Shown: one piece after another, positions 7,874 to 42,000 of the stretch | How positions within the stretch are numbered: the first letter of the stretch is position 1 | How the letters are laid out: each line of letters begins with the position of its first letter | The notes under the pieces: generated by a model | The model's input: only the letters and a program-made list of their open reading frames with translations | What the model was told of the DNA's origin: nothing | Database searches by the model: none | DNA from: an uncultured Verrucomicrobiae bacterium | Lineage (GTDB): Bacteria; Chlamydiota; Chlamydiia; Chlamydiales; Rhabdochlamydiaceae | Direction of reading: 5' to 3' | DNA: 64,000 nt | Assembly: GCA_963813135.1 (NCBI GenBank) | Contig: CAWEXY010000021.1 | Coordinates: 32,001-96,000 of the forward strand | Translations under genes and position numbers: made by a program

Positions 7874-7899
7874 ATTATACCTGAGTTTGCGAACTGGGG

Positions 7900-7973
7900 A
7901 GAGATTTTAACGCAGAGGCTCAAAGTTGCAAAAGATATCTTAGCGTCTTTGCGCCTTTGCGTTAAAACTCTCT
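7900..7973. repeat. Intergenic imperfect palindrome (REP-like hairpin)
   Basis: Arms AGAGATTTTAACGCAGAGGCTCAAAG and CTTTGCGCCTTTGCGTTAAAACTCTCT are near-complementary (about 26 bp) and lie just downstream of proS. Confidence 0.7.
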
Positions 7974-7999
7974 CTTTGCCCCCTTCGACTTTATTCATT

Positions 8000-10202: not shown

Positions 10203-10296
10203 ATATTACAGTACATTAAAAAAAAACTTGCTATTCTCGCGCAAATTTGCCAATAAAAGGCTTAACACATAAAATAGGCCACGGGGGACGTTCATT

Positions 10297-27691: not shown

Positions 27692-28282
27692 TTACTTTGC
27701 ACCAGCATACCTTTCTTCGACGTTTTTCCAGTTCACAATTTTCCAAATATTTTTTACATAGTCAGCTCTAACATTCTTATACTGAAGATAATAGGCATGC
27801 TCCCATACATCGATGCCCAAAAGAGGCACTAACCCCGTTGTACTCAAGGGATCCTGGTTGCTGCAGGCAGCGATCGCGAGCCTTCCTTTTGCCTTATCAT
27901 AGCCTAGCCAGCCCCATCCAGAACCCTGTATCGCCACCGTTGAGGAGCTCATCACTTCGATCAATTTATCCAATGATCCAAATTCTTTCTTGATAGCCTC
28001 GAGAAGATCGCCCTTAGGTTCGCCGCCCTTCGGGGTTAAGTTTGTCCAAAAAATCGAGTGGTTCACATGACCGCCCCCGTTGAACCGGATCGCCGGCTGC
28101 AGCGCGATCATCGCTGCGACATCGCCTTTTTTCTCTGCTTCGACATATTTTTCCAACGCAGCGTTCAAATTATTGACATACGCTTGGTGGTGTTTGGTGT
28201 AATGGAGTTCCATGATTTGGCCCGAGATAACGGGTTCGAGAGCTCCAAAATCGTAGGGGAGCTCAGGGAGCTTGTATTGCAT
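27692..28282 (-). CDS. sodA: Superoxide dismutase, Mn/Fe family (Mn-type signatures)
   Basis: Motifs [31 protein letters not shown] and DVWEHAYY. Confidence 0.93.
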
Positions 28283-28369
28283 AAGGCCTCCTTAAAACTT
28301 GTAACCTTCAGCATATCCGAACCCCCAAAAAAAGAGGAAGGTAAAGTTCCTAATGGCTATAATCCAAAC

Positions 28370-30694
28370 ATGCTTTGTCGGATTATTCTATCCATCTGCC
28401 TTCCCTTCTTCCTCATGGCCTCGCCGGCCCCTGAATGGGCCCATCCTGCAGACTTTGCCCTGCATCCCGTCCCCATCGATCCTTCTCAAAACAGCCTTCA
28501 ATGCCTTCTCAAAGAAAGACAGCAGCACAAAGAAGAACATACGACCTTCGCCCACTTTGCTATTAAAATTCTCTCTTCCAGCGGGGTCCATCAAATCTCG
28601 CAGCTTAATTTTGACTACGATCCCGCCTTCCAAAAAGTGGACGTGCACACCCTCCGCATCTATCGCGACGGAGAGTGGCTCGATCGCCTAGAAACATCCC
28701 GCCATAACACTATTCAGCGCGAAGAAAACCTCGATCAAAACCAATACAACGGCAACCTTTCGCTCGTCTATTTTATCGATGACATCCGCGAAGGCGACAT
28801 CCTTGAATACGCCTATTCCACCATTGGAGAATCTCCCATTTTTTCATCCCATCTCTACACGATCTTCAAACTCCAGCACGAACAGGCCATCGAAAAAACC
28901 TCATATAAAATTCTGGCCCCTCCTGATACGCCTCTCCGCTTCAAAAACTTTAACACCTCCCTAGAACCCACGGTTACAGATCTCTCCCCCGACCTTCGCG
29001 AGTGGGCATGGCAAACAAACACTTCGGCTCCCTATTCATTAGAGCCCTCTCTTCCCGATTGGTATTTTCCGATGGCCCATGTCGAAGTCAGCGAGTATAA
29101 CAATTGGCAAGAACTGGCCCAGACAATCGCTCCCCTTTATGCCCTTCCAGAGCTCGCCTCGCCCGAGATGAGCGCGCTCACGGAAAAATGGAAGTCCGCC
29201 GCTGCGCATCCCGCTAAGCGCGCCCTTCTAGCTCTCCGATTTGTGCAAGACGAAGTTCGTTATCTGGGCTTTGAAGAAGGCGTCGGCGCCTTCAAGCCCG
29301 CCGATCCCTCCGTCACCCTCCAACGGCGCTTTGGAGACTGTAAAGATAAGACCTTTCTCCTCCACGCTCTTTTACACCAAATGGGCATCGAGTCCATTCC
29401 CTTGTTAGTCCACTCCCGCCAGGGCAAAAGCCTTCCCGAGTCTCTTCCGCTGCCCGGACTATTCGATCATATTATTTTGCAGATCAAAATCGGAGAAGCC
29501 GCTTACAACGTCGATCCCACCCTCAACCTCCAAGGCGGCTCCCTCGAAAGCACCATTTGCCCCCTCTACCACTTTGGCCTTTTGACCAGTCCGGATACAA
29601 CAGACCTCACCCCCATCCCCGAGCGCCCCCGAAAACCCGAAGAAATCGATACCTCCATCACCCTTGTTTCTGAAGACACCGCGCATCTCACCATCCGCCA
29701 GACCTTCCACACCTCGCGCGCTGACATGTACCGCGACATGCTCAACTGGAAAGGCATCAAAAAAGTCTCCGATGACGATCTCCATGAGATCCAAGAAATT
29801 TATGGCGGCGGATCCGAGCTGAGCCCTCTCACCTTTACCGACGATCGGGAAAAAAACATTCTCACCATCACCAAGTCCTACATCATCCCCACACGCCATA
29901 GCGCAGGACAAAAAGTCCTCGATATCTTTTCCTTTACCTTGCGCGATTATCTCCTCACTGGAATCAACCCTGCCCGCTCCTCTCCTCACGCCCTAGCCTA
30001 TCCCCTTTGGGTCCAAGAACACATCCACATCGATAACCCCTACCACACCTATCACTCAGCTTCACAGCACAGCCGCTCTGACCACGATTCCTTTTTCTAT
30101 AATTACTCCTACAACTTTGCGGGCCACACCGCCGACTATCGCCACGAACTCAAGAACCTGCGCGACCACATAGCTCCTGACCACCTGCGCGACTACTGGG
30201 AACAAACCCGCGGCATCACGCGCAATATGTTTATTGAACAGACCATCGCCGCACCCCAACCCTCCTTGTCCCACCTTTGGAGCGCTTTCTTCTTTTTACT
30301 ATGGATCGCCTTAGTGTTTTTTTCCCGCCACAGCCCCTCCACGCTCGAACTCCACCTCCAAAGAGCCTGGAGGTTCTACTCCCTTTTCATGTTCATTTTC
30401 CTTTACAACATCACCCCCAATGCCGGGCTCTACACCATCTCTATCCTTGCCCTCCTCCTATGCGGAAAACTCTTCCAGCAGCGCATCTTCAACAAAAAAT
30501 CTTCCCAAGACATCGCCCTCGCTCTCGTTGCCTTAGCCCTGCACATCGGACTCGTTGCTTACCTTGTCTATCCCTCATCCTGGGAACGCGCCGGCCCCAT
30601 TATTTTGACCCTGCTCTACCTTGGCGCAGCCGCGCGCCACCTCCTCCTCGCCCGTAAATTCCTCTCGCAGGACATCGAGATCCTTAGCGCATAA
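28370..30694 (+). CDS. DUF3857/transglutaminase-like exported protein with C-terminal TM helices
   Basis: Probable start ATG 28370 gives signal peptide MLCRIILSICLPFFLMA. Motifs 'D.REGDILEYAYS', 'FVQDEVRY', catalytic-type GDCKDK, FDHII and VDPT, then several hydrophobic C-terminal helices. Confidence 0.8.
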   Translation: MLCRIILSICLPFFLMASPAPEWAHPADFALHPVPIDPSQNSLQCLLKERQQHKEEHTTFAHFAIKILSSSGVHQISQLNFDYDPAFQKVDVHTLRIYRDGEWLDRLETSRHNTIQREENLDQNQYNGNLSLVYFIDDIREGDILEYAYSTIGESPIFSSHLYTIFKLQHEQAIEKTSYKILAPPDTPLRFKNFNTSLEPTVTDLSPDLREWAWQTNTSAPYSLEPSLPDWYFPMAHVEVSEYNNWQELAQTIAPLYALPELASPEMSALTEKWKSAAAHPAKRALLALRFVQDEVRYLGFEEGVGAFKPADPSVTLQRRFGDCKDKTFLLHALLHQMGIESIPLLVHSRQGKSLPESLPLPGLFDHIILQIKIGEAAYNVDPTLNLQGGSLESTICPLYHFGLLTSPDTTDLTPIPERPRKPEEIDTSITLVSEDTAHLTIRQTFHTSRADMYRDMLNWKGIKKVSDDDLHEIQEIYGGGSELSPLTFTDDREKNILTITKSYIIPTRHSAGQKVLDIFSFTLRDYLLTGINPARSSPHALAYPLWVQEHIHIDNPYHTYHSASQHSRSDHDSFFYNYSYNFAGHTADYRHELKNLRDHIAPDHLRDYWEQTRGITRNMFIEQTIAAPQPSLSHLWSAFFFLLWIALVFFSRHSPSTLELHLQRAWRFYSLFMFIFLYNITPNAGLYTISILALLLCGKLFQQRIFNKKSSQDIALALVALALHIGLVAYLVYPSSWERAGPIILTLLYLGAAARHLLLARKFLSQDIEILSA

Positions 30695-30723
30695 ATTGCA
30701 AAATTCTTTCTACTTAGATATCC

Positions 30724-31686
30724 TTGCACAAAGCAGGAGTCATCTTGAGAATCTTTTTAGCCATCCTTTTTTTTCTCATCACCCTTCTCCAATCCCTCTT
30801 CTCCGCAGAAGATCGCGTCAACTACGAACCGCTCTACGCTGGATCCCTCCTCGCCTTCTTTCCCAACAACATTCCCCCGGGGCACCTCTCCATTCAACCC
30901 TATATCTACTACACCCGCACCAACGCCATCTATAATCACCACTGGTCTCCTCAAACCATCAAAAACGTCGACCTCGCAACTCTTTCCGTTTCTTTAGAAA
31001 CCGGGATCACCCCCTATCTTGATTTCACCCTCATCCTCAATGACACCTACAATCGCTCCGGAAGCCGCCATACACTTCTTTGCGCGGATACCGAAGCCTA
31101 TTTGGGCTTCCAAGTCACCACTAATAAAAAAGGAACCCTCGTCCCCGACTTCCGAGTTCTCTTAGGCGAAAGCTTTCCTACCGGCAAATATAAAAACCTC
31201 AACCCCAAAAAACTGGGAAGCGACATTTCTGGAACAGGCTCTTATGAAACAATCCTCCTCGTCGTCGTCCGCAAAATATTCTACGTTCCCAAACATCCCT
31301 TCGACATCAACCTCAACCTCTTCTACGTCCTTCCCGCTAAAACCCATGTCGACAACCTCAGCGTCTATCTCGGCGGCCCTGGCACACACGGCACCGTCCG
31401 GCCTGGCAATGAGTTCATCGTCAACCTCGCCATCGATTACAGCCTCACCCGCTACTGGGCCCTCGGGCTCGACGCGCACTATGTTCATCAAAATCGTTCC
31501 CGCTTCTCTGGAAAGACCCTTCTCCCCGCCGGCCTGCCCTCCTCAGAAATCTTTAGCCTGGCCCCCTGCCTCGAGTATAGTTATTCCGACGACTTTAGCT
31601 TAGCGGGAGGATTTTGGTTCTCCGTCGCCGGCCGCAACGCCGTCCAGTTCCGCAGCGCCGTCTTCAACGTCTATTATTTTTTCTAA
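30724..31686 (+). CDS. Putative outer-membrane beta-barrel channel (transporter / MetA-pathway-like family)
   Basis: Signal-like N-terminus, motif 'FPTGKY...GSG', amphipathic strands and aromatic C-terminus NVYYFF. The start codon is uncertain. Confidence 0.65.
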   Translation: MHKAGVILRIFLAILFFLITLLQSLFSAEDRVNYEPLYAGSLLAFFPNNIPPGHLSIQPYIYYTRTNAIYNHHWSPQTIKNVDLATLSVSLETGITPYLDFTLILNDTYNRSGSRHTLLCADTEAYLGFQVTTNKKGTLVPDFRVLLGESFPTGKYKNLNPKKLGSDISGTGSYETILLVVVRKIFYVPKHPFDINLNLFYVLPAKTHVDNLSVYLGGPGTHGTVRPGNEFIVNLAIDYSLTRYWALGLDAHYVHQNRSRFSGKTLLPAGLPSSEIFSLAPCLEYSYSDDFSLAGGFWFSVAGRNAVQFRSAVFNVYYFF

Positions 31687-31781
31687 CACAAAATTTATCC
31701 ATCCTTTACATTGCGTAAAATACTTCGATTTAATAAAATTAGTCTGACTTCATTTTAAAAGTTTTTAAATCAGGATTATCG

Positions 31782-32933
31782 ATGCGTCGATTTATATTTG
31801 TTATTTCAATAATTCTTAGCGTATTTTTTATAGTCAACCAGCTGCAAATTCGAAACGTTAAAAAAAGACTTGTCAATCATCGAAAAACCGTAAAGAAGCA
31901 AGAAGTCGCCCGCAACGAACCTACGCCCAAATACTCCAAAATAACTCTCCCTCCCCAACTACAAGCCCTCCCCTTGGCCGATGAGTCGGGCATCGTTCTC
32001 GGAGTGAAGAACATCTCTGTCCCCGGCATCAACGCCCCCTATAATCCCTCGATTATAAAATACAAAGATCATTACGCGATGGTATTCCGCTACGATGTTT
32101 TGGATAAAAAATGTAAGCAACCCTTTTATACTTATGTAGGCTGCACCGAACTAGATAAAAATTTTTACAACATAAGCAAACAGCCTAAAAAGATCGATAC
32201 CGGCAGCAAATTTTCAGAAGATGCCCGCATCATCCAGTTAAAAGATGACTATTATCTCATCTTTAATGATCTTTCGCCTGCGCCCAACAATTACTACTGC
32301 CGCACCATGCGGATGGCCCAAGTTGATTTAAGCACAGGCCAAACGAAAAATGCATCTAACTACGACCTTCACTTTAAACCCATAGAAAAGAATTGGGCCC
32401 CTTTTGTCTACAACGACTCCATCCATTTTGAGTATTCCCTAAACCCCCATAAAATATTAGAAGTCCCAGATCCTAAGAAAAGCGATCTTGCCCATTTGAC
32501 CTTTCCCAACAACCCCTATTTCCAGCATTTCTCCTGGCCGAGCACTTGGGGCGAGATGCGTGGAGGGTCCCCCGCCCAGCTCATAGATGGACAATATGTA
32601 GGGTTTTTCCACAGCTTCTTTCGAGATAAAGATAATTTTGCTTGGTATGTCATGGGCGCCTACACCTTTGAGCCCACACCCCCCTTCCGCATCACCGCAG
32701 TATCCAGCCATCCCATCTTGTTTCAGGGAATCTACGAAACTTCAAGGCGCAACACAGGCAATCCGCGCCACCATGTGATCTACCCCGGCAGTTTCGTAGT
32801 CGAAGAAACAGCCGACCGCAAACTGATCCACCTCGCCTGCGGGGAAAATGACAGCACAATAAAAATCGTCACCCTCGATAAAGAAAAATTGCTCAACAGC
32901 CTAAAGCCCGTTGCTCCCAAAGGGAAGTCTTAA
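31782..32933 (+). CDS. Membrane-anchored five-bladed beta-propeller glycosidase-like protein (GH130/GH43-like)
   Basis: N-terminal anchor and motifs YNPSII, SEDARI, EKNWAPF, MRGGSP, FFHS and GENDS. Confidence 0.65.
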   Translation: MRRFIFVISIILSVFFIVNQLQIRNVKKRLVNHRKTVKKQEVARNEPTPKYSKITLPPQLQALPLADESGIVLGVKNISVPGINAPYNPSIIKYKDHYAMVFRYDVLDKKCKQPFYTYVGCTELDKNFYNISKQPKKIDTGSKFSEDARIIQLKDDYYLIFNDLSPAPNNYYCRTMRMAQVDLSTGQTKNASNYDLHFKPIEKNWAPFVYNDSIHFEYSLNPHKILEVPDPKKSDLAHLTFPNNPYFQHFSWPSTWGEMRGGSPAQLIDGQYVGFFHSFFRDKDNFAWYVMGAYTFEPTPPFRITAVSSHPILFQGIYETSRRNTGNPRHHVIYPGSFVVEETADRKLIHLACGENDSTIKIVTLDKEKLLNSLKPVAPKGKS

Positions 32934-34184
32934 ATGCCCCGAGCGCGCTTGAGCATCATCGCCTCCCTCATTTGCTGCTTCGTATTCCTATCCTCGTTTT
33001 TCTTGGACAAACAGCCCGACCTGACCATCTTCGGCTTCTGCAACATGGCCGATGGCGTCGGCAGGCAATCCCCGGAACTCATCGAAGCATTTAAAGAAGA
33101 ACTCTCCATCAATTTTATTCCCACTCGTCAGAGCAAGCTCACCGACGTTCCCAAAAGCATCAAAAAAATCCTCAAAGGCAAAAATCAGGACCTGGGAAAA
33201 GTCATCCTCTTTGAAGATCTTATTTGGTGGCCCGGCGAAGAGAAATTTCGCAAGCTGGATTTGCCCGAGGCTAAAAAAAGCATCAAGATTGCTTACTCGA
33301 TGTTCGAGTCCACCCAAATCCCGCCCGAATGGGTCATCATCCTCAACAACTATTTTGACGCCGTTGCAGTTCCCGACCGATTTCTGATCGATGTTTATGA
33401 GAAAAGCGGCGTTAAGATCCCCATATTCGAACTTCCCCTCGCCCTCAACCTTGACAGATACCTCGCAAAACCCCTCAAAACCCATCGCCGCTCGCCCCTC
33501 GTCTTCGCCAACTTTAGCGCCAGCAGCGATCGAAAAAACCAGCTCCTTCTCATCCGCGCCTTTGCTAAAGCTTTTGGCGACCGCGCCGACGTCCTCCTCC
33601 GCATCAATAGCCGGTCCGGAGAACCCCATGTACGCGAAGCCATCACCAAAGAAATCGCCGAGCTCAACGCCACGAACATCGTCTTCACCCAGTTTAACTT
33701 ATCTCAAGAAGAGTATCTTAACCTCTTCGACCAGGTCGATTGCTACGTCAGCCTTTCCAAGGGAGAAGGATTTTCCATCCAACCCCGAGAGGCCATGGCG
33801 CTCGGCATCCCCGTTATCGCCACCGATAACACCGGACAAAGCACCATCTGTCAAAGCGGCCTTGTCAAGTCCGTCGACTCTCCTCATCAACAACCCGCCC
33901 TCTATCCTTGGGGCGATTACTATGGCTATTCCTTTAACTGCTCCCTAACCGATGCCGCCGATGCCCTGCGTGACATGTACGACCATTATGACGACTACCT
34001 AAACAAGGCCCCCATGTCCCGGACCTGGGCGAAGCAATATCAATACGAAGCCCTCAAGCCCCTCTACCGTTCTCTTCTCCATCCCCAAAAAGTCCTCCTC
34101 GGGCCCGTGAACCAGCTCACGCCCGACGGCTTGATAACCACCTCACCCGAACTCGCCGCAAAGTACCAAAGTCTGTTTCCTTAA
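32934..34184 (+). CDS. Glycosyltransferase family 4 (GT-B)
   Basis: Motifs 'DRKNQ.LLI.AF' and 'DCYVSLSKGEGFSIQPREAMALGIPVIATD' (Ex7E). Begins immediately after the upstream stop. Confidence 0.88.
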   Translation: MPRARLSIIASLICCFVFLSSFFLDKQPDLTIFGFCNMADGVGRQSPELIEAFKEELSINFIPTRQSKLTDVPKSIKKILKGKNQDLGKVILFEDLIWWPGEEKFRKLDLPEAKKSIKIAYSMFESTQIPPEWVIILNNYFDAVAVPDRFLIDVYEKSGVKIPIFELPLALNLDRYLAKPLKTHRRSPLVFANFSASSDRKNQLLLIRAFAKAFGDRADVLLRINSRSGEPHVREAITKEIAELNATNIVFTQFNLSQEEYLNLFDQVDCYVSLSKGEGFSIQPREAMALGIPVIATDNTGQSTICQSGLVKSVDSPHQQPALYPWGDYYGYSFNCSLTDAADALRDMYDHYDDYLNKAPMSRTWAKQYQYEALKPLYRSLLHPQKVLLGPVNQLTPDGLITTSPELAAKYQSLFP

Positions 34185-34226
34185 CATTTGTTATTATTTC
34201 TAGCGATCCCTTACAATCGCTTCCAT

Positions 34227-37124
34227 ATGACGCAGAGGTTGCAAGGATCGACACTTTCCCAGCACCACAAAGCCGCTGCCGCAGAAGCTGACAGCGAGCT
34301 TACCCGCTGGTTTGAGCGTTTTCCGCAAGGCCGCGATTCTCGCCTGTTAGAAAATTTCCCCATTCTCTTCCTTTTCGCCAGCACGGAATTTCTCGACCAT
34401 CGGGAACCTCACCATCTTTTCCGGCTCATTCTTTCTCTTCACGTCATTGAACAAAAGTTAGGCCGATGCCTGACCCAATCTCCTGAGAGCCGGCACATAG
34501 AATTTAAAATCTTCCCCGCAACTCTTTTTTATCCCTTTTCTTCCAAAAAAGTCCTCGGCTGCACCGTAGGAGCTTATCTTCCCGATCCCAATGACCGCTT
34601 CGATGAACAATCCCTTTTTGCCGCGATACAGAAAATCATCGGACCCGTCCACTTTATCTCAGAAAGCATCTACCGCCATCCTGTCAAAAATAAAAACTTT
34701 CATCTCCTTTATCTCGAATTGGAAAAAAGAGACGCCCCTTTCACCCTCTATCATCGAAAATCTCTCCAAGCAAACCTCAAACAACAGCTGCTGCACACCA
34801 TCCCCAAACTTTTTCCCGCCGTCTTCATGCGCCGCAACCAAGAAGAAGTATTTAAGAACATCCTGCTCCTAAGCCAGCAAATAAACTCTGCTCACGATTT
34901 GCCCCAGGTCATGATTTCATTGGAAGAACAAACTTCTGAAGAGATTATTTTTTTGATTACCCTTGTCACAGTAGAAAAACCTCTTTTCTTTGACCCCAAT
35001 CTCATCATTGAGCGCCAACAAGTCGTGCGAAACTTACCCTCCGGCGAAAGCCTAAGGGCTTACCTTCTGCGTCTATCCCTTCCGCGCGAACCCTCTCTTT
35101 TTCGATCCAATGGATCATTGAATTTCTATTCAGCTCGAGAAAAAGCCTCCAAAAAACTCCAATCCTTCCTTGGAGATTTTCGCGATTGCAACGGAGGCCT
35201 CCTCATCAAGCAAAGCGAACACTTGCAAAACCTTAGAGAGGCTTTTCCCTCTGTAGACGCCGAGCTAATAGAGACATTTTTTTATTCCTTATCTCCCTTA
35301 GAAAAGCAAGCGACCATTCCAACTCCCGCCCTATCGCAATTTTTTGCCTTCTTCCTAGAAGGAACACAGCTCCCCCCCTCCGAAACTTATCAAATCCGCT
35401 CCTCTGAGTCCCATGAGCTTTTCTTTGCCTCCATCCAAAGCATATTTTCTATGAACAAAGATATGCTCTCCCTCCCTTCTCATCCTTCTCTAATCGATAA
35501 AGAAGTCATCTCAAGCTGCACAACTGTTGGAGGCATGACATATGTCAGTTACATGATCCTCAGGCCCCAGCCCCACGATTGTACTAATCTCCTTGATCTC
35601 ATCCGCGAAACAGCCCAGTCATGGCACCACCAGCTTGCCAGCCAGAAAATCGTTCGTGTCGCCCTCGAAGACAAAATTTCCTCCCTTGACCCGCGCATAG
35701 GGGGAGACAACGCCTCTCCACCCATCCTCAAAATGCTCTTTGAAGGACTAATGAGGCTCGATCGAGAAGGAAAGATCCAACCCGCCATCGCACGTGATGT
35801 TTCAATTTCAAACGATGCAAAAAAATATACCTTCCATCTTCGTCCCTCGGTTTGGAACGATAAAACATCCCTCACCGCACATGATTTCGAATACTCCTGG
35901 AAAACACTCCTCTCTCCTCACTCTCAGACAGCTTTTGATTATTTCTTTCATCCCATTCTTTTTGCTAAAGAAGTAAAAAACGGAGTCCTCTCTCTAGATC
36001 AACTAGGCGTTCGCGCCCTTGATGACCTTACTCTCGAAGTCAAACTTGTCTTTCCCACACCCTATTTCCTCCAACTCACTGCCCACCCCCTCTACTCCCC
36101 TATCCATCGCCAAATAGATCAGCGATCCCCCGAATGGCCAAGTCAATCGGGTAAAGCGTACCCCTGCAACGGCCCTTATGAGCTCAAATTAAATCATCCT
36201 AACACCGGCTACCAACTCATAAAAAATCCCCTCTACTGGGATAGTGAAAATACACAAATCGACAAATTTGTTTTAACACATGTTCCATCTTCTCAAATGA
36301 CAAAGCTCTTCCAAAAAGGCGAGATCGATCTCATTAGCACCCCCTTAACATCGTACCATACTTTCCATTCTATAGAAAAAGATGCGAACAGTGTCTTAAT
36401 GTCTCAAAATATAGTTTGTTGGTGCGCCATCAATACCCAACAACCCTTTTTTTCTTCTCTTTCCACTAGACTAGCTTTAATGCGGGCTATTGATAAATCT
36501 GCTTTGGCAAATTCTCTTCCATTCCAGGCAATTCCTGCCCACTCGCCCATAGAATTTTCCCATAGCTCCATCAAGGAAGAAGTTAAAACACAATTTCAAC
36601 AAATGTCGAATTTATCGCTACCCCATCAGTTAGAACTAATCTATGACTCACAATCAGAGAAAGTCGTTTACTCTTTACAAAAAATGTGGAGAGATTCCTT
36701 GGGAATCGAATGTGATCTTAAACCTTTATCATGGGCTACTTTCTTTCATCATGTAACGGAAGGAAAATTTCAGTTAGCAGTCATTTCATGGACTTCATGG
36801 ATTGATGATCCTATTTACACCCTCAACGCTTTCCGGCACGCCCATGATAAAATTAATTTTTCCAATTGGGAAGATCCCTCTTTTCAAGCCTTGCTTGACC
36901 TAGCAGACCAAGAAATCAACCCCCATATGCGCAATCAATATCTTGCCAAGGCTGAGCTTATTTTGGCTCAAGAAATACCTGTGATTCCTCTCTACTATTA
37001 CAATAGCCAATCTTTCATGAGAAATGGCATCAAGATAGAATATCATCCGTCTCATGGTTTTTTTAATTTTATGAGAACGATCCAAACAAAAAGAGGTGCT
37101 TATGAGTTTCGTAACCAAAAATGA
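34227..37124 (+). CDS. Fusion of an unknown N-terminal domain (about 470 aa) with an OppA-like (SBP family 5) peptide-binding domain; no signal peptide
   Basis: From about 35646 the OppA motifs appear: SLDPR, LFEGLMR, YTFHLR..WND...TAHDFEYSW, GVRALDDLTLEV.L..PTPYF, NGPY.L, KNPLYWD and AELILAQEIPVIPLY. The N-terminus is hydrophilic with no lipobox. Confidence 0.85.
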   Translation: MTQRLQGSTLSQHHKAAAAEADSELTRWFERFPQGRDSRLLENFPILFLFASTEFLDHREPHHLFRLILSLHVIEQKLGRCLTQSPESRHIEFKIFPATLFYPFSSKKVLGCTVGAYLPDPNDRFDEQSLFAAIQKIIGPVHFISESIYRHPVKNKNFHLLYLELEKRDAPFTLYHRKSLQANLKQQLLHTIPKLFPAVFMRRNQEEVFKNILLLSQQINSAHDLPQVMISLEEQTSEEIIFLITLVTVEKPLFFDPNLIIERQQVVRNLPSGESLRAYLLRLSLPREPSLFRSNGSLNFYSAREKASKKLQSFLGDFRDCNGGLLIKQSEHLQNLREAFPSVDAELIETFFYSLSPLEKQATIPTPALSQFFAFFLEGTQLPPSETYQIRSSESHELFFASIQSIFSMNKDMLSLPSHPSLIDKEVISSCTTVGGMTYVSYMILRPQPHDCTNLLDLIRETAQSWHHQLASQKIVRVALEDKISSLDPRIGGDNASPPILKMLFEGLMRLDREGKIQPAIARDVSISNDAKKYTFHLRPSVWNDKTSLTAHDFEYSWKTLLSPHSQTAFDYFFHPILFAKEVKNGVLSLDQLGVRALDDLTLEVKLVFPTPYFLQLTAHPLYSPIHRQIDQRSPEWPSQSGKAYPCNGPYELKLNHPNTGYQLIKNPLYWDSENTQIDKFVLTHVPSSQMTKLFQKGEIDLISTPLTSYHTFHSIEKDANSVLMSQNIVCWCAINTQQPFFSSLSTRLALMRAIDKSALANSLPFQAIPAHSPIEFSHSSIKEEVKTQFQQMSNLSLPHQLELIYDSQSEKVVYSLQKMWRDSLGIECDLKPLSWATFFHHVTEGKFQLAVISWTSWIDDPIYTLNAFRHAHDKINFSNWEDPSFQALLDLADQEINPHMRNQYLAKAELILAQEIPVIPLYYYNSQSFMRNGIKIEYHPSHGFFNFMRTIQTKRGAYEFRNQK

Positions 37125-37461
37125 AATTCAGTATTTTCCTATTATCGAACAAATAGAGTCCCATATTGCTTGGCATGGGAATATTACCGGCTTAGAAACA
37201 GAAGACCTGCTTCAAGGAAAGAATCCCTTTACCTTTGTAATACGCAAAGGGGAAAAGCTTATGAATTATTATGTTTCCTTTGTTCAAAAAAATGGATCTT
37301 TTAAACATCAGCCCCTCCTCATACGAGTAACCGCTGAAGGATGGTTCTATCGCAATACGTTGAATAGCCTACCCTCCTATCGTCCATTTGTGGATTTTCT
37401 CCATCGTATCATCCATTGCGACGAAGGAGAGTGCCAGCCATTACCCTGCGCACACAAATAA
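37102..37461 (+). CDS. Stand-alone SH2-domain protein
   Basis: AWHGNITGLETEDLLQGKNPFTFVIRKGE...YYVSFV...GSFKHQ follows the SH2 consensus W(Y/F)HG.I.R.EAE.LL....GTFLVR.S...Y.LSV.....VKHY. ATG 37102 has a GAGG RBS and overlaps the upstream gene. Confidence 0.75.
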   Translation: MSFVTKNEIQYFPIIEQIESHIAWHGNITGLETEDLLQGKNPFTFVIRKGEKLMNYYVSFVQKNGSFKHQPLLIRVTAEGWFYRNTLNSLPSYRPFVDFLHRIIHCDEGECQPLPCAHK

Positions 37462-38802
37462 ATGTCTCCAACATCTCATTCGTGGAGGAGTTATCTCCTC
37501 CTTTATCTTCCTATAGCCGGAACATCGTTCCTTTCGGCGCTTTTTCCTTTTTTGGAAAAGATCCTCCTCGGACGTTTTTCTACGCAATCCCTCGAAGCTA
37601 TCGTGGGTGCAACCACTGTTTTACTTATTTTTCAATTCTCCTGCATTAGCATCGCCGCCCTAACGCAAGTCGATATCGCCCGCTATGCCGGAGCCGGCCA
37701 AACCCAGCGCATAGGCCCCTGCATTTGGCAAATGATCTGGTTTTCCCTCCTTTCCATGATCATCACCGTTCCCGTAAGCCTCCTCTATGGCCATTATTAC
37801 TTCGCAAATACATCCCTCCGCGATCTTGCCCTGCCCTACCTCCACCTCATGATCGCTACGAATTTTCTTCTTCCTTTGGGCGCTGCCCTTTCCGCGCTTT
37901 TTCTTGGAACCCGCCGCGGCAAAGAACTCTTCAAAATCAACCTCCTCGTTCAAACCATCGGATTCTTCCTATCTCTCGTTCTCATCTTCGGACTTCCCCC
38001 ACTCATCCCACCCCTCGGCCTTATCGGAGCTGGCATCGCCTTCATCGCAACCCAGGTCCTTATCTGCCTTATCCTCCTATATAAATTTTTCAGCCTCCCA
38101 CCCACTTTTGCTACAACTGCATGGAAATTCCATCCCTCCCTTTTCTGGAGCTATATCCGCCCCGGCCTTGTCCGTTCCTTTATGCGCAGCTCTGTCGCAA
38201 CCGCATGGTCTCTCATATTCCTTGTTATCCTCCGAAAAGGCGAAGATTTTCTCCTTATCTTCACCGTCGGAGGCACCCTGTGGCCTATATTCAGCATCGT
38301 CGCCAATGGTATGCAGCAACTCTTAATCACCGAAGTTTCTCATACTGCTAACAGTCCTTATTCACTATCCAACACCTTGCGCCAAGGCCTCATTCTCAGC
38401 GCTCTCATCATTGTAGCTTCGGCTATTCCCTTTCTGCTATTTCCTAAGCAACTCTTCTATTTCTGCATTTCAACTCCCCTTGACTTTCCCCAAACTATTG
38501 GACTCGGGCTCTGGCTTTGCCTTTCCTTTAACATTTTCTTCGGTGTCGCAAATGCATATATTCTTGCTTTCAAAGACATTTTTCAGCTCCTTGTCTTAGG
38601 GAGCATCACATGGATACTTGATCTCGCATTACCTTACCTAATTTTCACCTACCTTCCCATCGCTGCTCCCCAACTTTGGCTTGTGCTCGCCTTTAGTATT
38701 TTTCTCACCGCCGCTATCAACAGCCTTCGCGCCCGTTTTCTCATACGCAAAGTCCTATCCCCAAAATCTCCATTAGATTCCATACCGATAATCCTTGATT
38801 GA
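37462..38802 (+). CDS. MATE-family efflux transporter
   Basis: 446 aa, about 12 TM segments. MATE-like patterns 'LLLYLPI', 'IARYAGAG' and 'LIFG..LIPPLGLIGAGIA'. Directly abuts the SH2 stop (TAA|ATG). Confidence 0.8.
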   Translation: MSPTSHSWRSYLLLYLPIAGTSFLSALFPFLEKILLGRFSTQSLEAIVGATTVLLIFQFSCISIAALTQVDIARYAGAGQTQRIGPCIWQMIWFSLLSMIITVPVSLLYGHYYFANTSLRDLALPYLHLMIATNFLLPLGAALSALFLGTRRGKELFKINLLVQTIGFFLSLVLIFGLPPLIPPLGLIGAGIAFIATQVLICLILLYKFFSLPPTFATTAWKFHPSLFWSYIRPGLVRSFMRSSVATAWSLIFLVILRKGEDFLLIFTVGGTLWPIFSIVANGMQQLLITEVSHTANSPYSLSNTLRQGLILSALIIVASAIPFLLFPKQLFYFCISTPLDFPQTIGLGLWLCLSFNIFFGVANAYILAFKDIFQLLVLGSITWILDLALPYLIFTYLPIAAPQLWLVLAFSIFLTAAINSLRARFLIRKVLSPKSPLDSIPIILD

Positions 38803-38839
38803 CCTTCCAACAATCTCGTACAATCCCCTTCTCAAATAA

Positions 38840-40225
38840 ATGAAAACGAGCAATTCCCTCTCTTTAGATCCTAAAATAGGAAGCATCAAACACCTCTTAT
38901 TTCTGTATTTTCCCTTAGTCGGCGTCGCCCTTCTCTCGACACTTTTTCCCTTTTTAGAAAAAATCCTTCTCGGCCGCTTTTCATTAGAGGCCATGGAAGC
39001 CGTCATCGCAGCCTCCACCGTATGCAATGTCGTAAAAATCCCCTGTATTACCGCTGCATTTATCGCTCAAGTTCATATCAGCCGCTTCGCGGGCGCCAAT
39101 ACCCCAGAACATATGGGCCCCTGCATTTGGCAGATGATCTGGTTTTCTTTCCTCTCCATGATCATCACCGTTCCAATAACCCTCATTTATGGGCATTACT
39201 ATTTTGCAGGAACCACCATTCGCGACCTTGCCCTTCCCTATCTTTACATCATGACAGCCGGCAATTTCCTCTTCCCCTTAGGCGCTGCTCTTTCCTGCTT
39301 CTATCTCGGAAATAGAAGAGGAAAAGAACTCCTTAAAATCACCTTCCTCGTCCAGTCCCTAGGCCTTTGCCTCGCCTGCGTTCTTATCTTTGGAATATCC
39401 ATTATCCCACCCCTCGGCCTCATAGGCGCTGCGCTCGCTTTCATCTCTACCCAGCTTCTGTTCTGCCTCATACTCTTCCGCAACTTTTCCAAATCCTCCC
39501 CCATCTATGCGCCCTCTTCCTGGAAGCTCCGTCCTTCTCTCCTATGGGAGTACCTGCGCACAGGGATAATCCGCGCCTTTTCCACCACGTCCACTCTATT
39601 TGCTTGGTCCGTGATATCGTTTTTTGTTATTCACAAAGGAGATGACTTTCTCCTTATCCTAACTCTGGGAGGCGCCCTTTGGGAAATCTTCTCCGTCCTG
39701 ACAGAAGGCCTGCTGCAATTGCTCACAACAGAAGCCTCCCAAATTATTGGAGGCCAGCAAAGATCCCTCATTGAGAAACCCTTTCGCATAGGACTCCTCT
39801 TCAGCCTGGGAATCTCAGTAGCTCAGGCCATCCCCCTGCTCCTATTTCCTCAACAGCTCTTCCACATCTGCTTTTCAACGCTCACGCTTTCCTCCACTTC
39901 GCTCAGCATCCTAGCCCTAGGTCTTTGGACATGTTTCACCCTGGATGCGCTCAACGTTGTCGGAGTTGGGTACATCCTTTCATTCAAAGACACATTTCAG
40001 TTCATCCTGCGAGGAATCCTCTGCTGGATTTTTGAAGTCGGCTGTACATATCTTATTCTCCATAACTTTTCCATCGAGGCTCCGCAGCTTTGGCTTGCCA
40101 TCAGCGCTGGCCACCTACTCGTGGCCATGGTGGCCCTCCTCCGCGGCCGCTTCCTTGCAAAGCGGTATGCCTCTTCCATAGACTTTCAAGATCAGCGTTC
40201 ATTGGAAGCTGAAATCCAACACTGA
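38840..40225 (+). CDS. MATE-family efflux transporter (tandem paralog)
   Basis: 461 aa. Shares LFPFLEKILLGRFS, GPCIWQMIWFS, RDLALPYL, PPLGLIGA and APQLWL with the preceding gene. Confidence 0.8.
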   Translation: MKTSNSLSLDPKIGSIKHLLFLYFPLVGVALLSTLFPFLEKILLGRFSLEAMEAVIAASTVCNVVKIPCITAAFIAQVHISRFAGANTPEHMGPCIWQMIWFSFLSMIITVPITLIYGHYYFAGTTIRDLALPYLYIMTAGNFLFPLGAALSCFYLGNRRGKELLKITFLVQSLGLCLACVLIFGISIIPPLGLIGAALAFISTQLLFCLILFRNFSKSSPIYAPSSWKLRPSLLWEYLRTGIIRAFSTTSTLFAWSVISFFVIHKGDDFLLILTLGGALWEIFSVLTEGLLQLLTTEASQIIGGQQRSLIEKPFRIGLLFSLGISVAQAIPLLLFPQQLFHICFSTLTLSSTSLSILALGLWTCFTLDALNVVGVGYILSFKDTFQFILRGILCWIFEVGCTYLILHNFSIEAPQLWLAISAGHLLVAMVALLRGRFLAKRYASSIDFQDQRSLEAEIQH

Positions 40226-40312: not shown

Positions 40313-41518
40313 TTACCAGATGGTAATTCCCCCGCGCACTGTGACAGCCGCGTCCAAGGATTCGCCGGGAAGGAACCCTTTTGTTTTCCCCCCAACTTGG
40401 AGAAAAAGCGAACCCGAAGAACTGAATTGCCTTCTCAACATAATCGAAGCTGCAACTCCGACTTTTGGATCATAGGGTGAGGATGGAAAAGCCTCTTGCA
40501 GCTCCCATTTCTCTCTAAGGCTTTTGTAGGAATACTTTTTATCTTTGAACGCTGTATGCGGTTGATACCAACCATCGAAGCGAACGCCCACTGCTGTTTT
40601 TTCGTCATGCCAAAGCAAAGAGGGATGCTCGAGGCCAATGCCTGGGTAGACGTGTCCCGAATGACGGCCATATCGCAAATAAGCATAGATAGGCTCATTC
40701 CCTTTCAGGAGATAATTTTCCAAATAGTATTCCGGACCAAAAGGAGTAAGGCCAAGACGCAGACCTGGAAGGTATCCATATTCCCCTACGGGAATCATAG
40801 GAACTGGCCTCTGATTGCCTCGGACAATGTAATCTCCCCAGCTATACATGGCAAGATACGTGAAGGGGTCTAAGAGATTGATCCAAGCCTGCCGCTTGAG
40901 GGATTTGATAGACAGATGATCATCTGAATAGACCTCGTTAAGCAGATCGACATAATGCTTAACATCTCCTACATCATACACAGAATCTCTCGTATGATGG
41001 GTATACCACGTCAAATCATGCTGCGAAGATAGGTAAAGGACCGTTGATCGTGGATCGAGGTTTTCATTTTTAAGCCAACTGAGTTTAAGGCGATTTGCGA
41101 GAACAGCGGTTCCTTCCATTCCTGCGGAATCAATTGCCAAACTTTGAAACGGGGTCCATTTGGGAGAACGCTGAAACATCGTATATCCCCCGCCATTGGC
41201 ATAGGGGAAAGGAACTCCAACGCCATACTTCAAAACATGTCCATGCAGGCTTCGAACACGATAACCATGCCCAAAAACTTCATGCTGCGCTGTAGACGCA
41301 TATCTGCCAAGCGGATCCCAGAAACCAATTTGTGTGAACAGGCGCTCATACCAAGGCGGCGATGCGCTACGAGCATCTAGTGCCCACTCGGCAACATGAA
41401 ATCCTTCGATGATATCTTCACCTCCCGCATAAGGCGAAAAATGGGGATCCATGATGAAGTTAAAATGATCCTCAGCGAAAAGAGCACCGCAGCACAGAAA
41501 TAAGCAAATGGTTTTCAT
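40313..41518 (-). CDS. Exported protein with HExxGH motif and probable C-terminal beta-barrel (paralog of 49177..50400)
   Basis: Start ATG 41518 gives signal peptide MKTICLFLCCGALFA. Contains QHEVFGHG, and amphipathic strands ending RGGITIW. Confidence 0.65.
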   Translation of the reverse strand: MKTICLFLCCGALFAEDHFNFIMDPHFSPYAGGEDIIEGFHVAEWALDARSASPPWYERLFTQIGFWDPLGRYASTAQHEVFGHGYRVRSLHGHVLKYGVGVPFPYANGGGYTMFQRSPKWTPFQSLAIDSAGMEGTAVLANRLKLSWLKNENLDPRSTVLYLSSQHDLTWYTHHTRDSVYDVGDVKHYVDLLNEVYSDDHLSIKSLKRQAWINLLDPFTYLAMYSWGDYIVRGNQRPVPMIPVGEYGYLPGLRLGLTPFGPEYYLENYLLKGNEPIYAYLRYGRHSGHVYPGIGLEHPSLLWHDEKTAVGVRFDGWYQPHTAFKDKKYSYKSLREKWELQEAFPSSPYDPKVGVAASIMLRRQFSSSGSLFLQVGGKTKGFLPGESLDAAVTVRGGITIW

Positions 41519-42000
41519 GGTTATTCTCCGAAAGAAAAACCATGATCGCAAAACAACAAGCAACTATCAATGTAAAACAATGTGTATAAAATCAATTATA
41601 TTATTAATTCCTAATACGCAAATCACCTAGCATAAGCCAAGAAGGCGGAATCATGTGTTCGAGTGATTCATATTACTTTTCAATTTAAGTTTTATATGAA
41701 CATTTGTTTTAAATGCACTGATTTATGGAAAACAGGTCACATATCCGTTCTGCCAACTCCAAATCCACAATTTTCGAACTAATAGAATATAATTTAAAAA
41801 ATTACTAAAAAATTACACAAAACATAAAAAACCAAAAACTTACTGAAAAAATCAAAATAAACACATTTAAAATAAATTAATTTTTTGTCATCAAGCCACA
41901 CTTAAGCCTGTTAAAATATCTTGAAAATTGTTAACATCGTCGATGACAAAAGAAAAAATTAGCCAGTTTACTGAGTTCAGTTAAGGAGTAGGAGCGAAAA

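What the first reader, a model, noticed from the sequence alone, without database searches (positions are those of the whole stretch)
34227..40225. Coupled operon: cytoplasmic OppA-fusion + SH2 protein + two MATE exporters
Seen: the OppA-like domain has no signal peptide or lipobox, is fused behind an unknown ~470-aa domain, and has no oppBCDF genes nearby. Its stop overlaps the SH2 gene, whose stop abuts MATE1, and MATE2 follows 37 bp later. Knowledge: SBP family 5 domains serve as cytoplasmic ligand sensors in SgrR-type regulators, SH2 domains bind phosphotyrosine, and MATEs export small molecules. Inference: this may be an undescribed sensing/export or signalling module (ligand sensor, adaptor, exporters) rather than a peptide uptake system.
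Basis: partly seen in the sequence, partly recalled or inferred. Interest (0 to 1): 0.8.

Follow-up and report, generated by a model that had tools for sequence, protein, structure and literature searches.

The report
Chlamydial SH2, binding-protein and exporter operon
Many environmental chlamydiae carry a tightly packed operon that joins a signal-less peptide-binding-type protein, a small SH2 domain protein of the kind animals use to read phosphotyrosine, and MATE-type membrane exporters; no paper found here describes the combination and its function is unknown.

Summary
The genes are a 965-aa fusion (unknown 478-aa N-domain plus a complete OppA-type SBP_bac_5 domain, no signal peptide), a 119-aa SH2 protein and two MATE paralogues, with the junctions as described.

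The set is conserved. Of 91 SH2 matches in 70 Chlamydiota genomes, 81 lie within 6 kb of an N-domain gene. MATE follows in 26 of 29 foreign loci. One database protein joins fusion and SH2 in one frame.

The core pair is fusion plus MATE. Close orthologues without SH2 put MATE directly after the fusion in 8 of 13 loci, so SH2 is an optional insert.

The SH2 call is solid: Pfam above threshold, an SH2 fold by Foldseek, and invariant FLVR arginine and βD4 histidine.

The N-domain is a chlamydia-centred family without a Pfam model. It is built of ACT-like units and resembles the regulatory arm of large glutamate dehydrogenase.

In the SBP domain, the three residues aligned to OppA's ligand-contacting H371, R413 and D419 are Ser, Val and Trp, so a free-ended peptide ligand is unlikely.

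The most likely reading is a cytoplasmic ligand sensor or feeder coupled to a MATE exporter, with SH2 as a phospho-dependent accessory. Physical contact, ligand, substrate and phosphorylation remain untested.

The parts
34227..37124 (+). Gene for the 965-aa fusion protein (N-domain + OppA-type SBP domain). An alternative TTG start lies at 34188.
   Evidence: ORF. Homologues of the same architecture (43 of 54 carry PF00496). pI 6.7 and no hydrophobic segment.
34227..35660 (+). N-domain (aa 1-478). It is a chlamydia-centred family with no Pfam model. The predicted layout is a helical lead, a ββαββα unit, an α-β4-α unit, helices, then a second ββαββα unit.
   Evidence: No Pfam hit at E <= 1. AlphaFold model with pLDDT 86.8. 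Best structural matches are the large glutamate dehydrogenase N-terminal arm: Foldseek E 1.7e-5; VIA Z 7.5 and 8.1. Invariant residues include Y162, E164, E206, D224, R293, S297, R304, G316, R319, D320, N322, G323, G324. 887 representative clusters at E <= 1e-3 among 1.84 billion proteins.
35664..37058 (+). Complete OppA-type (SBP_bac_5, cluster C) solute-binding domain, with no signal peptide.
   Evidence: Pfam E 1.8e-52. Best solved relative is OppA 8are, E 1.5e-67, covering chain residues 26-515 of 525. The residues aligned to OppA H371, R413 and D419 (1b05) are S, V and W. Far below the NCBIfam OppA cut-off: 170.7 against 947 bits.
37091..37096 (+). AAGAGG Shine-Dalgarno-like hexamer, 5 nt before the SH2 start and inside the end of the fusion gene.
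   Evidence: Read directly from the sequence.
37102..37461 (+). Gene for a 119-aa stand-alone SH2 domain protein. It overlaps the fusion gene by 23 nt, and its stop directly abuts the MATE1 start.
   Evidence: Pfam SH2 24.4 bits against 21. PDB sequence hits are SH2 proteins only. Model pLDDT 85.8. Foldseek gives 117 PDB hits at E <= 1e-3, and all 40 rows shown are SH2 domains. R48 and H69 are invariant in 32 family members.
37462..38802 (+). MATE1, a 446-aa divergent MATE-family membrane transporter.
   Evidence: Pfam MatE 29.5 bits against 24.9. TIGR00797 66.3 bits, below its cut-off of 147.4. Multiple hydrophobic segments and pI 9.6.
38840..40225 (+). MATE2, 461 aa, a tandem paralogue 50% identical to MATE1.
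   Evidence: Pfam MatE 35.8 bits. 50% identity to MATE1. Best solved relative is the MATE Aq128, E 3.4e-6. In the ESM Atlas, 27 of 30 hits are MatE clusters at 0.99.

Best explanation
This is a conserved operon of Chlamydiota outside the small-genome family f4.

Core pair:
- A cytoplasmic two-part ligand-binding protein. It consists of an ACT-like N-domain followed by an OppA-type clamshell that has lost the residues which hold free peptide ends.
- A MATE-family secondary transporter encoded directly downstream.

Proposed action (inferred): the soluble protein senses, or captures, a cytoplasmic small molecule or modified peptide. It then either gates the MATE exporter or hands the compound to it.

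Role of SH2. In about a fifth of the genomes sampled, this one included, a bare SH2 domain protein is inserted between the two genes and is translationally coupled to both. It keeps the phosphate-binding arginine and histidine. It is therefore inferred to act as an accessory subunit that ties the pair to a phosphorylated, or otherwise acidic, motif.

Shown: gene order, conservation, co-inheritance, domain identities, absence of export signals, the altered pocket.

Inferred: cytoplasmic location, physical complex, direction of transport, phospho-dependence.
For: Gene linkage:
- 81 of 91 SH2 matches (E <= 5e-5, 70 genomes) have an N-domain gene within 6 kb. In 69 it is upstream on the same strand; in 12 it is on the opposite strand.
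- Of 29 foreign SH2 loci, 23 have the fusion's SBP end directly upstream and 26 have MATE directly downstream.
- Of 13 SH2-less orthologous loci, 8 have MATE within about 150 nt of the fusion's stop.
- Pairwise distances of the three proteins are correlated over 23 loci: fusion-MATE r 0.91, fusion-SH2 r 0.69, with 0 of 2000 permutations as high.
- One database protein (P0055, 1134 aa) carries N-domain, SBP and SH2 in a single frame.
- Start and stop codons overlap or abut (and in other genomes).

No export signal: and 0 of 200 family members.

Ligand pocket: the residues aligned to OppA H371, R413 and D419 are S, V and W, whereas Asp is kept in OppA 8are, DppE and MppA.

N-domain:
- Its best structural matches are an ACT-type regulatory arm.
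- In one cluster it is fused behind an amino-acid kinase domain, where aspartokinases carry ACT domains (the aspartokinase comparison is recalled).

SH2: the fold and the invariant R48 and H69.
Against: - No experiment or prediction here shows contact between any two of the proteins.
- No residue set distinguishes SH2-linked from SH2-less fusions or MATEs: 1, 3 and 0 positions respectively. SH2 therefore leaves no visible imprint on its presumed partners.
- No bacterial tyrosine kinase of the BY type was found above cut-off in this 82%-complete genome.
- The strong eukaryote-like kinases of this genome do not track SH2 across the phylum.
- 4 of 13 SH2-less fusion loci have no MATE nearby.
- The ACT-like assignment rests on middling structural scores (Z 7.5-8.1, TM 0.18-0.20). 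There is no sequence support.
- A type III secretion signal cannot be excluded from sequence.
Confidence: 0.5

Rival explanations
1. Host-directed effector reading. The SH2 protein, and possibly the large fusion, is secreted by the chlamydial type III system and binds phosphotyrosine proteins of the amoebal or animal host, as proposed for Legionella SH2 proteins. The neighbouring MATE is then only co-regulated.
For: - The SH2 is eukaryote-like. Its best sequence and structure matches are animal and fungal SH2 domains.
- The phosphate-binding Arg and His are invariant.
- No BY-type tyrosine kinase was found above cut-off in the genome.
- The genome carries six strong eukaryote-like PK_Tyr_Ser-Thr kinase genes, which suggests host-directed phospho-signalling.
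- Legionella SH2 proteins are reported to bind phosphotyrosine (passages of PMC7542358).
Against: - An effector would not be expected to keep one fixed place between two bacterial genes in 69-81 of 91 cases over many families.
- It would also not be expected to be translationally coupled to a membrane transporter gene, nor to occur fused to the SBP protein.
- SH2 presence does not follow the eukaryote-like kinases. These occur in 8 of 401 genomes; the same-genus genome G275 has SH2 but none of them.
Confidence: 0.15
2. Metabolic co-operon without a complex. The fusion is a stand-alone cytoplasmic sensor or enzyme-like regulator of peptide or amino-acid metabolism. The MATE merely exports a related product. 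The proteins share regulation but never touch, and SH2 modulates only the fusion.
For: - N-domain proteins also exist without an SBP domain, and N-domain genes occur without a MATE nearby. About 100 of 200 family members are 600-800 aa. Loci L049-L052 hold an N-domain gene with no SBP part and no MATE.
- 4 of 13 SH2-less fusion loci lack MATE.
- No partner-specific residues were found.
Against: - The overlapping or abutting stop-start arrangement and the r 0.91 distance correlation of fusion and MATE fit stoichiometric co-production. They do not prove it.
- No catalytic or DNA-binding domain is detectable in the fusion.
Confidence: 0.25
3. Ordinary peptide uptake. The OppA-like domain is exported by an unrecognised route and serves a distant OppBCDF importer.
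For: The SBP domain is complete and most like OppA, DppE and MppA. The genome has ABC permease genes on other contigs.
Against: - No signal peptide or lipobox here or in 200 relatives.
- A 478-aa soluble domain precedes the SBP domain.
- The residues aligned to OppA H371, R413 and D419 are replaced.
- Four normal-length OppA-type genes are available for the importer.
- The conserved neighbour is a MATE, not an ABC permease.
Confidence: 0.04
4. Chance neighbourhood or annotation artefact. The genes are unrelated, or the small ORF is not a real SH2 gene.
For: The Pfam SH2 score is only 3 bits above threshold. Most database copies are labelled hypothetical.
Against: - 164 family clusters exist with conserved core residues.
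- The model is confident and its top hits are exclusively SH2 folds.
- Synteny is recurrent.
Confidence: 0.02

Closest known systems
Legionella SH2-domain proteins (Kaneko et al. 2018, PMC6208348)
   Same: Both are bacterial proteins of an intracellular, amoeba-associated lineage that carry an SH2 fold and retain the phosphate-binding arginine.
   Different: - The chlamydial proteins are bare ~115-145-aa SH2 domains locked in an operon between a bacterial binding protein and a MATE transporter.
- Their listed sequence and fold matches are eukaryotic SH2 domains; no Legionella entry is among the listed hits.
- The 2018 paper holds no word starting with 'chlamyd'.
SgrR-type cytoplasmic regulators (winged-helix domain + SBP_bac_5 domain; recalled)
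   Same: An SBP family 5 domain without a signal peptide, used inside the cell behind another domain.
   Different: No DNA-binding domain is detectable. The N-terminal part is a 478-aa ACT-like array with no Pfam match. The conserved partner is a transporter gene.
Binding-protein-dependent secondary transporters (TRAP and TTT systems; recalled)
   Same: A solute-binding protein is genetically paired with a secondary, non-ABC membrane transporter.
   Different: In those systems the binding protein is extracytoplasmic and feeds an importer. Here it has no export signal, belongs to SBP family 5, and is paired with a MATE-fold protein, a family known for export.
OppA/MppA/DppE peptide-binding proteins of ABC importers
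   Same: The full two-lobe SBP_bac_5 fold is present. The best match is OppA 8are, E 1.5e-67, over nearly the whole chain.
   Different: - No signal peptide, and no adjacent permease.
- The residues aligned to OppA H371, R413 and D419 are S, V and W.
- The score is far below NCBIfam's OppA cut-off.
N-terminal regulatory arm (ACT-like domains and helical motifs) of the 180-kDa glutamate dehydrogenase of Mycobacterium smegmatis (PDB 7jsr, 7a1d, 9hv6)
   Same: It is the best structural match of the N-domain in three searches: Foldseek E 1.7e-5 at probability 0.95-0.99; VIA Z 7.5 and 8.1 over 101-140 residues, about 3 Z units above the next unrelated rows. ESM Atlas named leads are the same GDH families.
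   Different: No sequence similarity is detectable. TM-scores are low (0.18-0.20), and no dehydrogenase domain follows.

Membership tests
SH2 domain (PF00017) | Match to the family profile above the curated threshold | tested here: met
   24.4 bits against 21 and 24.6 bits in the genome scan. Only 4 of 120 listed relatives carry a precomputed PF00017 hit, so the family sits at the edge of the model.
SH2 domain (PF00017) | SH2 fold (helix A, central antiparallel sheet, helix B) | tested here: met
   Model pLDDT 85.8, pTM 0.77, with H30-37, strands 44-92 and H96-104. Foldseek PDB gives 117 hits at E <= 1e-3. All 40 rows shown are SH2 domains, probability 1.00, TM 0.45-0.71.
SH2 domain (PF00017) | Arginine βB5 of the FLVR motif, the main phosphate ligand (role recalled) | tested here: met
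   R48 is invariant in 32 of 32 family members. It aligns to the R of 'tflvRes' in the p85 SH2.
SH2 domain (PF00017) | Histidine βD4 (role recalled) | tested here: met
   H69 is invariant in 32 of 32. It aligns to the H of 'evkH' in p85.
SH2 domain (PF00017) | Arginine αA2, the second phosphate ligand of many SH2 domains (recalled) | tested here: not met
   The position is Gly30, nearly invariant. The aligned SHP-2 SH2 segment 'nitGveae' also has Gly there, so this does not exclude the family.
SH2 domain (PF00017) | Binding of phosphotyrosine peptides | not testable with these tools
   Needs a binding assay.
OppA-type substrate-binding protein of an ABC peptide importer | SBP_bac_5 domain | tested here: met
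   E 1.8e-52. OppA 8are E 1.5e-67.
OppA-type substrate-binding protein of an ABC peptide importer | Signal peptide or lipobox for export | tested here: not met
   Highest hydropathy in the first 60 aa is 0.93, with no TM-like segment. 0 of 200 relatives have a hydrophobic N-terminus by a crude hydropathy test.
OppA-type substrate-binding protein of an ABC peptide importer | Residues that hold the peptide's free ends (OppA D419, R413, H371; roles recalled) | tested here: not met
   They align to W, V and S. The Asp is kept in 8are, DppE and MppA.
OppA-type substrate-binding protein of an ABC peptide importer | Cognate permease and ATPase genes nearby | tested here: not met
   PF00528 matches are only on contigs C9 and C7. 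The conserved neighbour is MATE.
OppA-type substrate-binding protein of an ABC peptide importer | NCBIfam OppA equivalog score | tested here: not met
   170.7 bits against a cut-off of 947.
MATE transporters (PF01554 / TIGR00797) | Pfam MatE above threshold | tested here: met
   29.5 and 35.8 bits against 24.9. No other MOP-superfamily model matches at E <= 5.
MATE transporters (PF01554 / TIGR00797) | TIGR00797 subfamily cut-off | tested here: not met
   66.3 and 74.1 bits against 147.4. These are divergent members.
MATE transporters (PF01554 / TIGR00797) | Polytopic membrane protein of about 12 helices | tested here: inconclusive
   A hydropathy scan gives 10-16 overlapping segments. No dedicated topology predictor was available. 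Similarity to the solved MATE Aq128 is E 3.4e-6. 27 of 30 Atlas hits are MatE.
SgrR-type regulators | N-terminal DNA-binding domain | tested here: not met
   No Pfam family on aa 1-478 at E <= 1 in the window protein. No DNA-binding family appears among 40 relatives.
ACT / GDH_ACT regulatory domains | Sequence match to an ACT or GDH_ACT profile | tested here: not met
   None at E <= 1. PF21076 was found in 0 of 151 Chlamydiota genomes, which do contain N-domain genes. The family profile against PDB sequences has a best E of 0.087.
ACT / GDH_ACT regulatory domains | ββαββα fold resembling solved ACT-type domains | tested here: inconclusive
   Large GDH: Z 7.5 (rmsd 2.8, 101 aligned) and Z 8.1 (rmsd 4.1, 140 aligned). 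Aspartokinase regulatory domain: Z 6.3. Plant ACT-like domains: Z 5.0-5.1. The tool states that Z under 8 can be a common arrangement.
Binding-protein-dependent secondary transporters (TRAP/TTT) | Extracytoplasmic binding protein and DctQM- or TctAB-type membrane parts (recalled) | tested here: not met
   There is no export signal, and the membrane partner is MatE.

The most novel reading that the evidence does not exclude
An SH2 domain works inside a bacterial cell as part of the bacterium's own machinery. Together with a cytoplasmic ACT-like/OppA-like binding protein, it forms a phospho-regulated, binding-protein-assisted MATE export system. This would be an inside-out counterpart of binding-protein-dependent import. 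The module occurs in many chlamydial families, which would make it an old bacterial use of SH2 rather than a recent host-mimicking effector.
Probability: 0.2. Interest if true: 0.85.

Novelty: new variant of a known kind. Interest (0 to 1): 0.68.

Why it matters
SH2 domains are regarded as a hallmark of eukaryotic phosphotyrosine signalling. In bacteria they have been described as Legionella proteins thought to act on the host (passages of PMC7542358).

Here an SH2 family of at least 164 sequence clusters, almost all labelled hypothetical, is fixed in a bacterial operon between a signal-less solute-binding protein and a MATE transporter.

If the three proteins work together, three things follow:
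- A prokaryotic, cell-internal use of SH2 would be shown.
- A solute-binding protein would be shown to serve an exporter from the cytoplasmic side.
- A 478-aa domain family found in 360 of 400 sampled Chlamydiota genomes, with no Pfam model, would gain a first functional handle.

The finding also corrects the routine annotation 'peptide ABC transporter substrate-binding protein' given to these ~1000-aa proteins (names).

Tried and rejected
- Co-fold of fusion residues 62-952 with SH2 residues 9-116: no answer (score 0.00, below the mark; controls not run). This is not evidence either way. SH2 with MATE, and fusion with MATE, could not be tried because the cap is one job.
- Expression: no RNA holder is listed. 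Only small-share DNA metagenome runs appear.
- Apparent in-frame fusion-SH2 read-throughs in L017, L020 and L027 were artefacts of my script. The ORF listing shows stops and separate genes.
- The fusion's C-terminal 'GAYEF' as a possible SH2 ligand is not conserved in orthologues.
- Residues specific to SH2-linked copies: only 1 (SBP), 3 (N-domain) and 0 (MATE) positions. This is no guide to a contact surface, and the groups are confounded by phylogeny.
- Link to the eukaryote-like kinases: strong PK_Tyr_Ser-Thr matches occur in 8 of 401 genomes against SH2 in 82 of 400, so they do not track each other.
- BY-kinase model TIGR01007: one match at 52.5 bits, below the 108-bit cut-off, in an 82%-complete genome.
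- Pfam GDH_ACT2 was found in 0 of 151 Chlamydiota genomes, so no large-GDH sequences were available for a profile-profile test.
- N-domain profile against PDB sequences: best E 0.087, a 25-residue local match to M. tuberculosis OmamC, judged to be chance.
- Promoter and terminator scans are at shuffle level: 6 found against 7.6 expected, and 7 against 6.4.
- Earlier findings of this scan: nothing by place, sequence or words.
- Literature: the listings show no paper on chlamydial SH2 proteins or on this operon. In one search, all 15 listed papers on environmental chlamydiae have 0 occurrences of 'SH2'. Supplements were not consulted.
- One search was a script error, corrected.

Full report
**What is there**

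The window is part of contig C21 of a 1.83-Mb, 31-contig, 82%-complete genome. The named relatives of its proteins are Chlamydiales and Parachlamydiales.

Four genes lie on the + strand:
- a 965-aa protein, 34227-37124
- a 119-aa protein, 37102-37461
- two membrane proteins of 446 aa (37462-38802) and 461 aa (38840-40225)

- The small gene starts 23 nt before the large gene's stop, behind an AAGAGG hexamer.
- Its TAA is followed at once by the next ATG.
- 37 nt separate the two membrane-protein genes.

Pfam gives SBP_bac_5 (E 1.8e-52) on the C-terminal half of the large protein. It gives SH2 (24.4 bits against a threshold of 21) on the small one. It gives MatE (29.5 and 35.8 bits against 24.9) on the membrane proteins.

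The first 478 aa match no Pfam family even at E <= 1. The large protein has no hydrophobic N-terminus and no TM-like segment. The genome's ABC permease genes lie on other contigs. Seven SBP_bac_5 genes exist in the genome: four of ordinary length (539-557 aa open frames) and three long ones.

**Is the gene set conserved?**

Yes.

*Distribution of the parts.* A six-frame search of 400 Chlamydiota genomes with the SH2 protein found matches in 82 (E <= 0.01). They are spread over many families: f1 32/90, f7 18/69, f9 17/35, f6 4/46 and others. The N-domain was found in 360 of 400 genomes. It was found in 0 of 29 of family f4, whose genomes are 1.0-1.2 Mb.

*SH2 next to the N-domain.* There are 91 SH2 matches at E <= 5e-5 outside the window locus, in 70 genomes.
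- 81 have a listed N-domain match within 6 kb.
- In 69 of these the N-domain is upstream on the same strand, at the distance expected for an intervening SBP domain.
- In 12 it is on the opposite strand.
- This is a floor, because only 149 of 696 foreign N-domain matches were listed.

*The 29 foreign loci fetched with 1.5-kb flanks.*
- 23 have the fusion's SBP end directly upstream. 4 have a divergent N-domain gene. 2 have neither.
- 26 have a MATE gene directly downstream. One locus is cut by a contig end, and two show none.
- One locus has three SH2 genes in tandem before the MATE.

*SH2 is not obligatory.* I examined 13 loci chosen for high N-domain scores but lacking an SH2 match.
- In 8 the fusion is followed within about 150 nt by a MATE gene.
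- In 1 the MATE follows after 1.7 kb.
- In 4 no MATE is nearby.
- Four loci that hold an N-domain gene with no SBP part have no MATE.

So fusion plus MATE is the core pair, and SH2 is an insert in a subset.

*Co-inheritance.* Pairwise distances of the three proteins over 23 loci are correlated: fusion-MATE r 0.91, fusion-SH2 r 0.69, SH2-MATE r 0.58, with 0 of 2000 permutations as high. This fits inheritance as a unit but does not show contact.

*A fused form.* A profile search among longer proteins found one protein, P0055 (1134 aa, one contig), in which N-domain, SBP and SH2 are one reading frame. The SH2's own Met lies eight residues after the usual end of the fusion.

**The SH2 protein**

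- Sequence searches of the Protein Data Bank return only SH2-containing proteins. The best is p85 at E 2.2e-4 with the single sequence. With the 32-member family profile, 16 of 16 hits are SH2-containing, best E 1.6e-4.
- The AlphaFold model (pLDDT 85.8, pTM 0.77) has the helix-sheet-helix order of SH2.
- Foldseek gives 117 PDB hits at E <= 1e-3. All 40 rows shown are SH2 domains: PLCγ, SOCS, LNK, Src, Spt6 and others, at probability 1.00.
- In the family alignment R48, G50, H69 and W81 are invariant.
- R48 aligns with the FLVR arginine and H69 with the βD4 histidine. Their roles are recalled knowledge.
- The αA2 arginine is a glycine, as in the aligned SHP-2 segment.
- The family comprises 164 clusters at 90% identity. 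Every name given is 'hypothetical protein', and only 4 of 120 listed carry a precomputed SH2 hit.

**The fusion protein**

*SBP half.* It aligns with nearly the whole of OppA (8are, E 1.5e-67, chain residues 26-515). It also aligns with DppE, Salmonella and E. coli OppA, and MppA.

In the alignment to 1b05, the residues that correspond to H371, R413 and D419 are Ser, Val and Trp. In OppA these three contact the ends of the bound peptide (recalled). The Asp is kept in 8are, DppE and MppA. The family consensus keeps this Trp. A ligand with a free amino terminus is therefore unlikely.

*N-domain.* It modelled well (pLDDT 86.8; pTM 0.53, as expected for several sub-domains). The order is a helical lead, a ββαββα unit, an α-β4-α unit, helices, and a second ββαββα unit.

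Structural comparisons agree on one best match:
- Foldseek's two best PDB hits are the 180-kDa glutamate dehydrogenase of M. smegmatis (E 1.7e-5 and 2.5e-5, probability 0.95-0.99, TM only 0.18-0.20). PAS-type sensors follow.
- VIA-align ranks the same enzyme first in the wide search: Z 7.5, rmsd 2.8, 101 residues.
- It also ranks it first in the second look: Z 8.1, rmsd 4.1, 140 residues. The next unrelated rows are at 5.0.
- Aspartokinase regulatory and plant ACT-like domains score Z 5.0-6.3.
- The ESM Atlas's named leads are the GDH_ACT, GDH_HM1 and GDH_2nd families at 0.75-0.85, below the level the tool trusts.

There is no sequence support for this resemblance. I therefore describe the domain as ACT-like by fold only.

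*Size and shape of the family.* A profile of the N-domain alone found 887 representative clusters among 1.84 billion proteins; 636 are at E <= 1e-30. Among the listed hits there are three main architectures:
- N-domain + SBP, about 1000 aa
- an extra ~165-aa lead + N-domain, about 640-700 aa
- the lead + N-domain + SBP, about 1120-1180 aa

One cluster has an amino-acid kinase domain in front. None of 200 members has a hydrophobic N-terminus by a crude hydropathy test.

**The transporters**

MATE1 and MATE2 are 50% identical.
- They match only MatE among Pfam families at E <= 5.
- They fall below the TIGR00797 cut-off.
- They resemble the solved MATE Aq128 (E 3.4e-6).
- They give MatE clusters in 27 of 30 Atlas hits.

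**Mechanism**

What is shown:
- A signal-less, two-part ligand-binding-type protein is genetically and evolutionarily tied to a MATE transporter.
- In a subset of genomes it is also tied to an SH2 protein that keeps its phosphate-binding residues.

What is inferred:
- The soluble protein binds a cytoplasmic compound. It either gates the exporter or hands the compound to it.
- SH2 adds a phospho-dependent link.

Evidence against, or missing:
- No contact has been shown.
- No SH2-specific imprint appears on the partners.
- No BY-type kinase was found above cut-off.
- The genome's six strong eukaryote-like kinase genes are a rarity in the phylum (8 of 401 genomes) and do not follow SH2.

The main rival is that SH2 is a secreted effector aimed at host phosphotyrosine. 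Sequence cannot exclude this. It fits poorly with the fixed operon position and the single-frame form P0055.

**Comparison and novelty**

- Legionella SH2 proteins share the fold and the life style but not the operon context. The 2018 survey does not mention chlamydiae.
- SgrR-type regulators share the cytoplasmic use of SBP family 5 but have a DNA-binding domain, which is absent here.
- TRAP and TTT systems share the pairing of a binding protein with a secondary transporter, but on the other side of the membrane and with other families.

Three full-text searches listed no paper on chlamydial SH2 proteins or on this operon. I saw only listings and abstract starts, except for passages of PMC7542358 and a term search of PMC6208348. 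No supplements were consulted.

I rate it a new variant of known kinds, built from known folds in an undescribed combination. Its function is still open.

Noticed in passing
L032 (G000:C11:114000-132000), about 7856-12537 on the - strand: The genome holds a second copy of the whole module: fusion, SH2 (47% identical) and MATE. This copy looks decayed. The fusion is split into 875-aa and 100-aa frames, and the MATE into 174-aa and 284-aa frames, while the 116-aa SH2 gene is intact. Assembly errors in a draft genome are not excluded.
   Followed up: partly
G000 contigs C11:153583-156443, C15:19994-20734, C19:28033-28785, C23:2060-2797, C6:18088-18822: Six genes match Pfam PK_Tyr_Ser-Thr at 195-211 bits over the full profile, in open frames of 599-929 aa. 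Matches of that strength (E <= 1e-40) occur in only 8 of 401 Chlamydiota genomes sampled. They look like eukaryote-like kinases and may be host-directed.
   Followed up: partly
window 28000-40225: The 12-kb run of co-directional + strand genes has a strongly negative GC skew (-0.24 to -0.38 per 2 kb) and 43-52% GC. The 40-64 kb stretch has a skew near 0 and 36-47% GC. The cause is unexplained.
   Followed up: no
window 28058-34184, + strand: Upstream genes: an 878-aa DUF3857 protein with a hydrophobic tail, a 320-aa porin-like protein (Phenol_MetA_deg/BBP2), a 383-aa protein with a faint mannoside-phosphorylase-like hit, and a GT4 glycosyltransferase. None was found beside the module in the other loci searched.
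   Followed up: partly
L019 (G118:C58) 1471-2812; G358:C55:6630-7410: The SH2 gene is amplified in tandem in some genomes. There are three copies between the fusion and the MATE in L019, and two in G358.
   Followed up: no
rows such as G313:C11:57747-57929, G320:C124:7950-8147, G301:C8:215072-215263: Weak SH2-like matches (E 3e-4 to 8e-3) fall in open frames of 254-297 aa in several family-f7 genomes. This may be a second, longer SH2-like protein family.
   Followed up: no
P0178 (825 aa): One representative protein carries an amino-acid kinase domain (PF00696, E 2e-47, aa 3-228) in front of the N-domain (aa 358-819). It could be a real fusion or a gene-calling join.
   Followed up: no
window 40313-41563, - strand: A convergent 416-aa ORF with an N-terminal hydrophobic stretch. 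It has only a sub-threshold Pfam hit: Tox-REase-5, 21.1 bits against a cut-off of 25.
   Followed up: no
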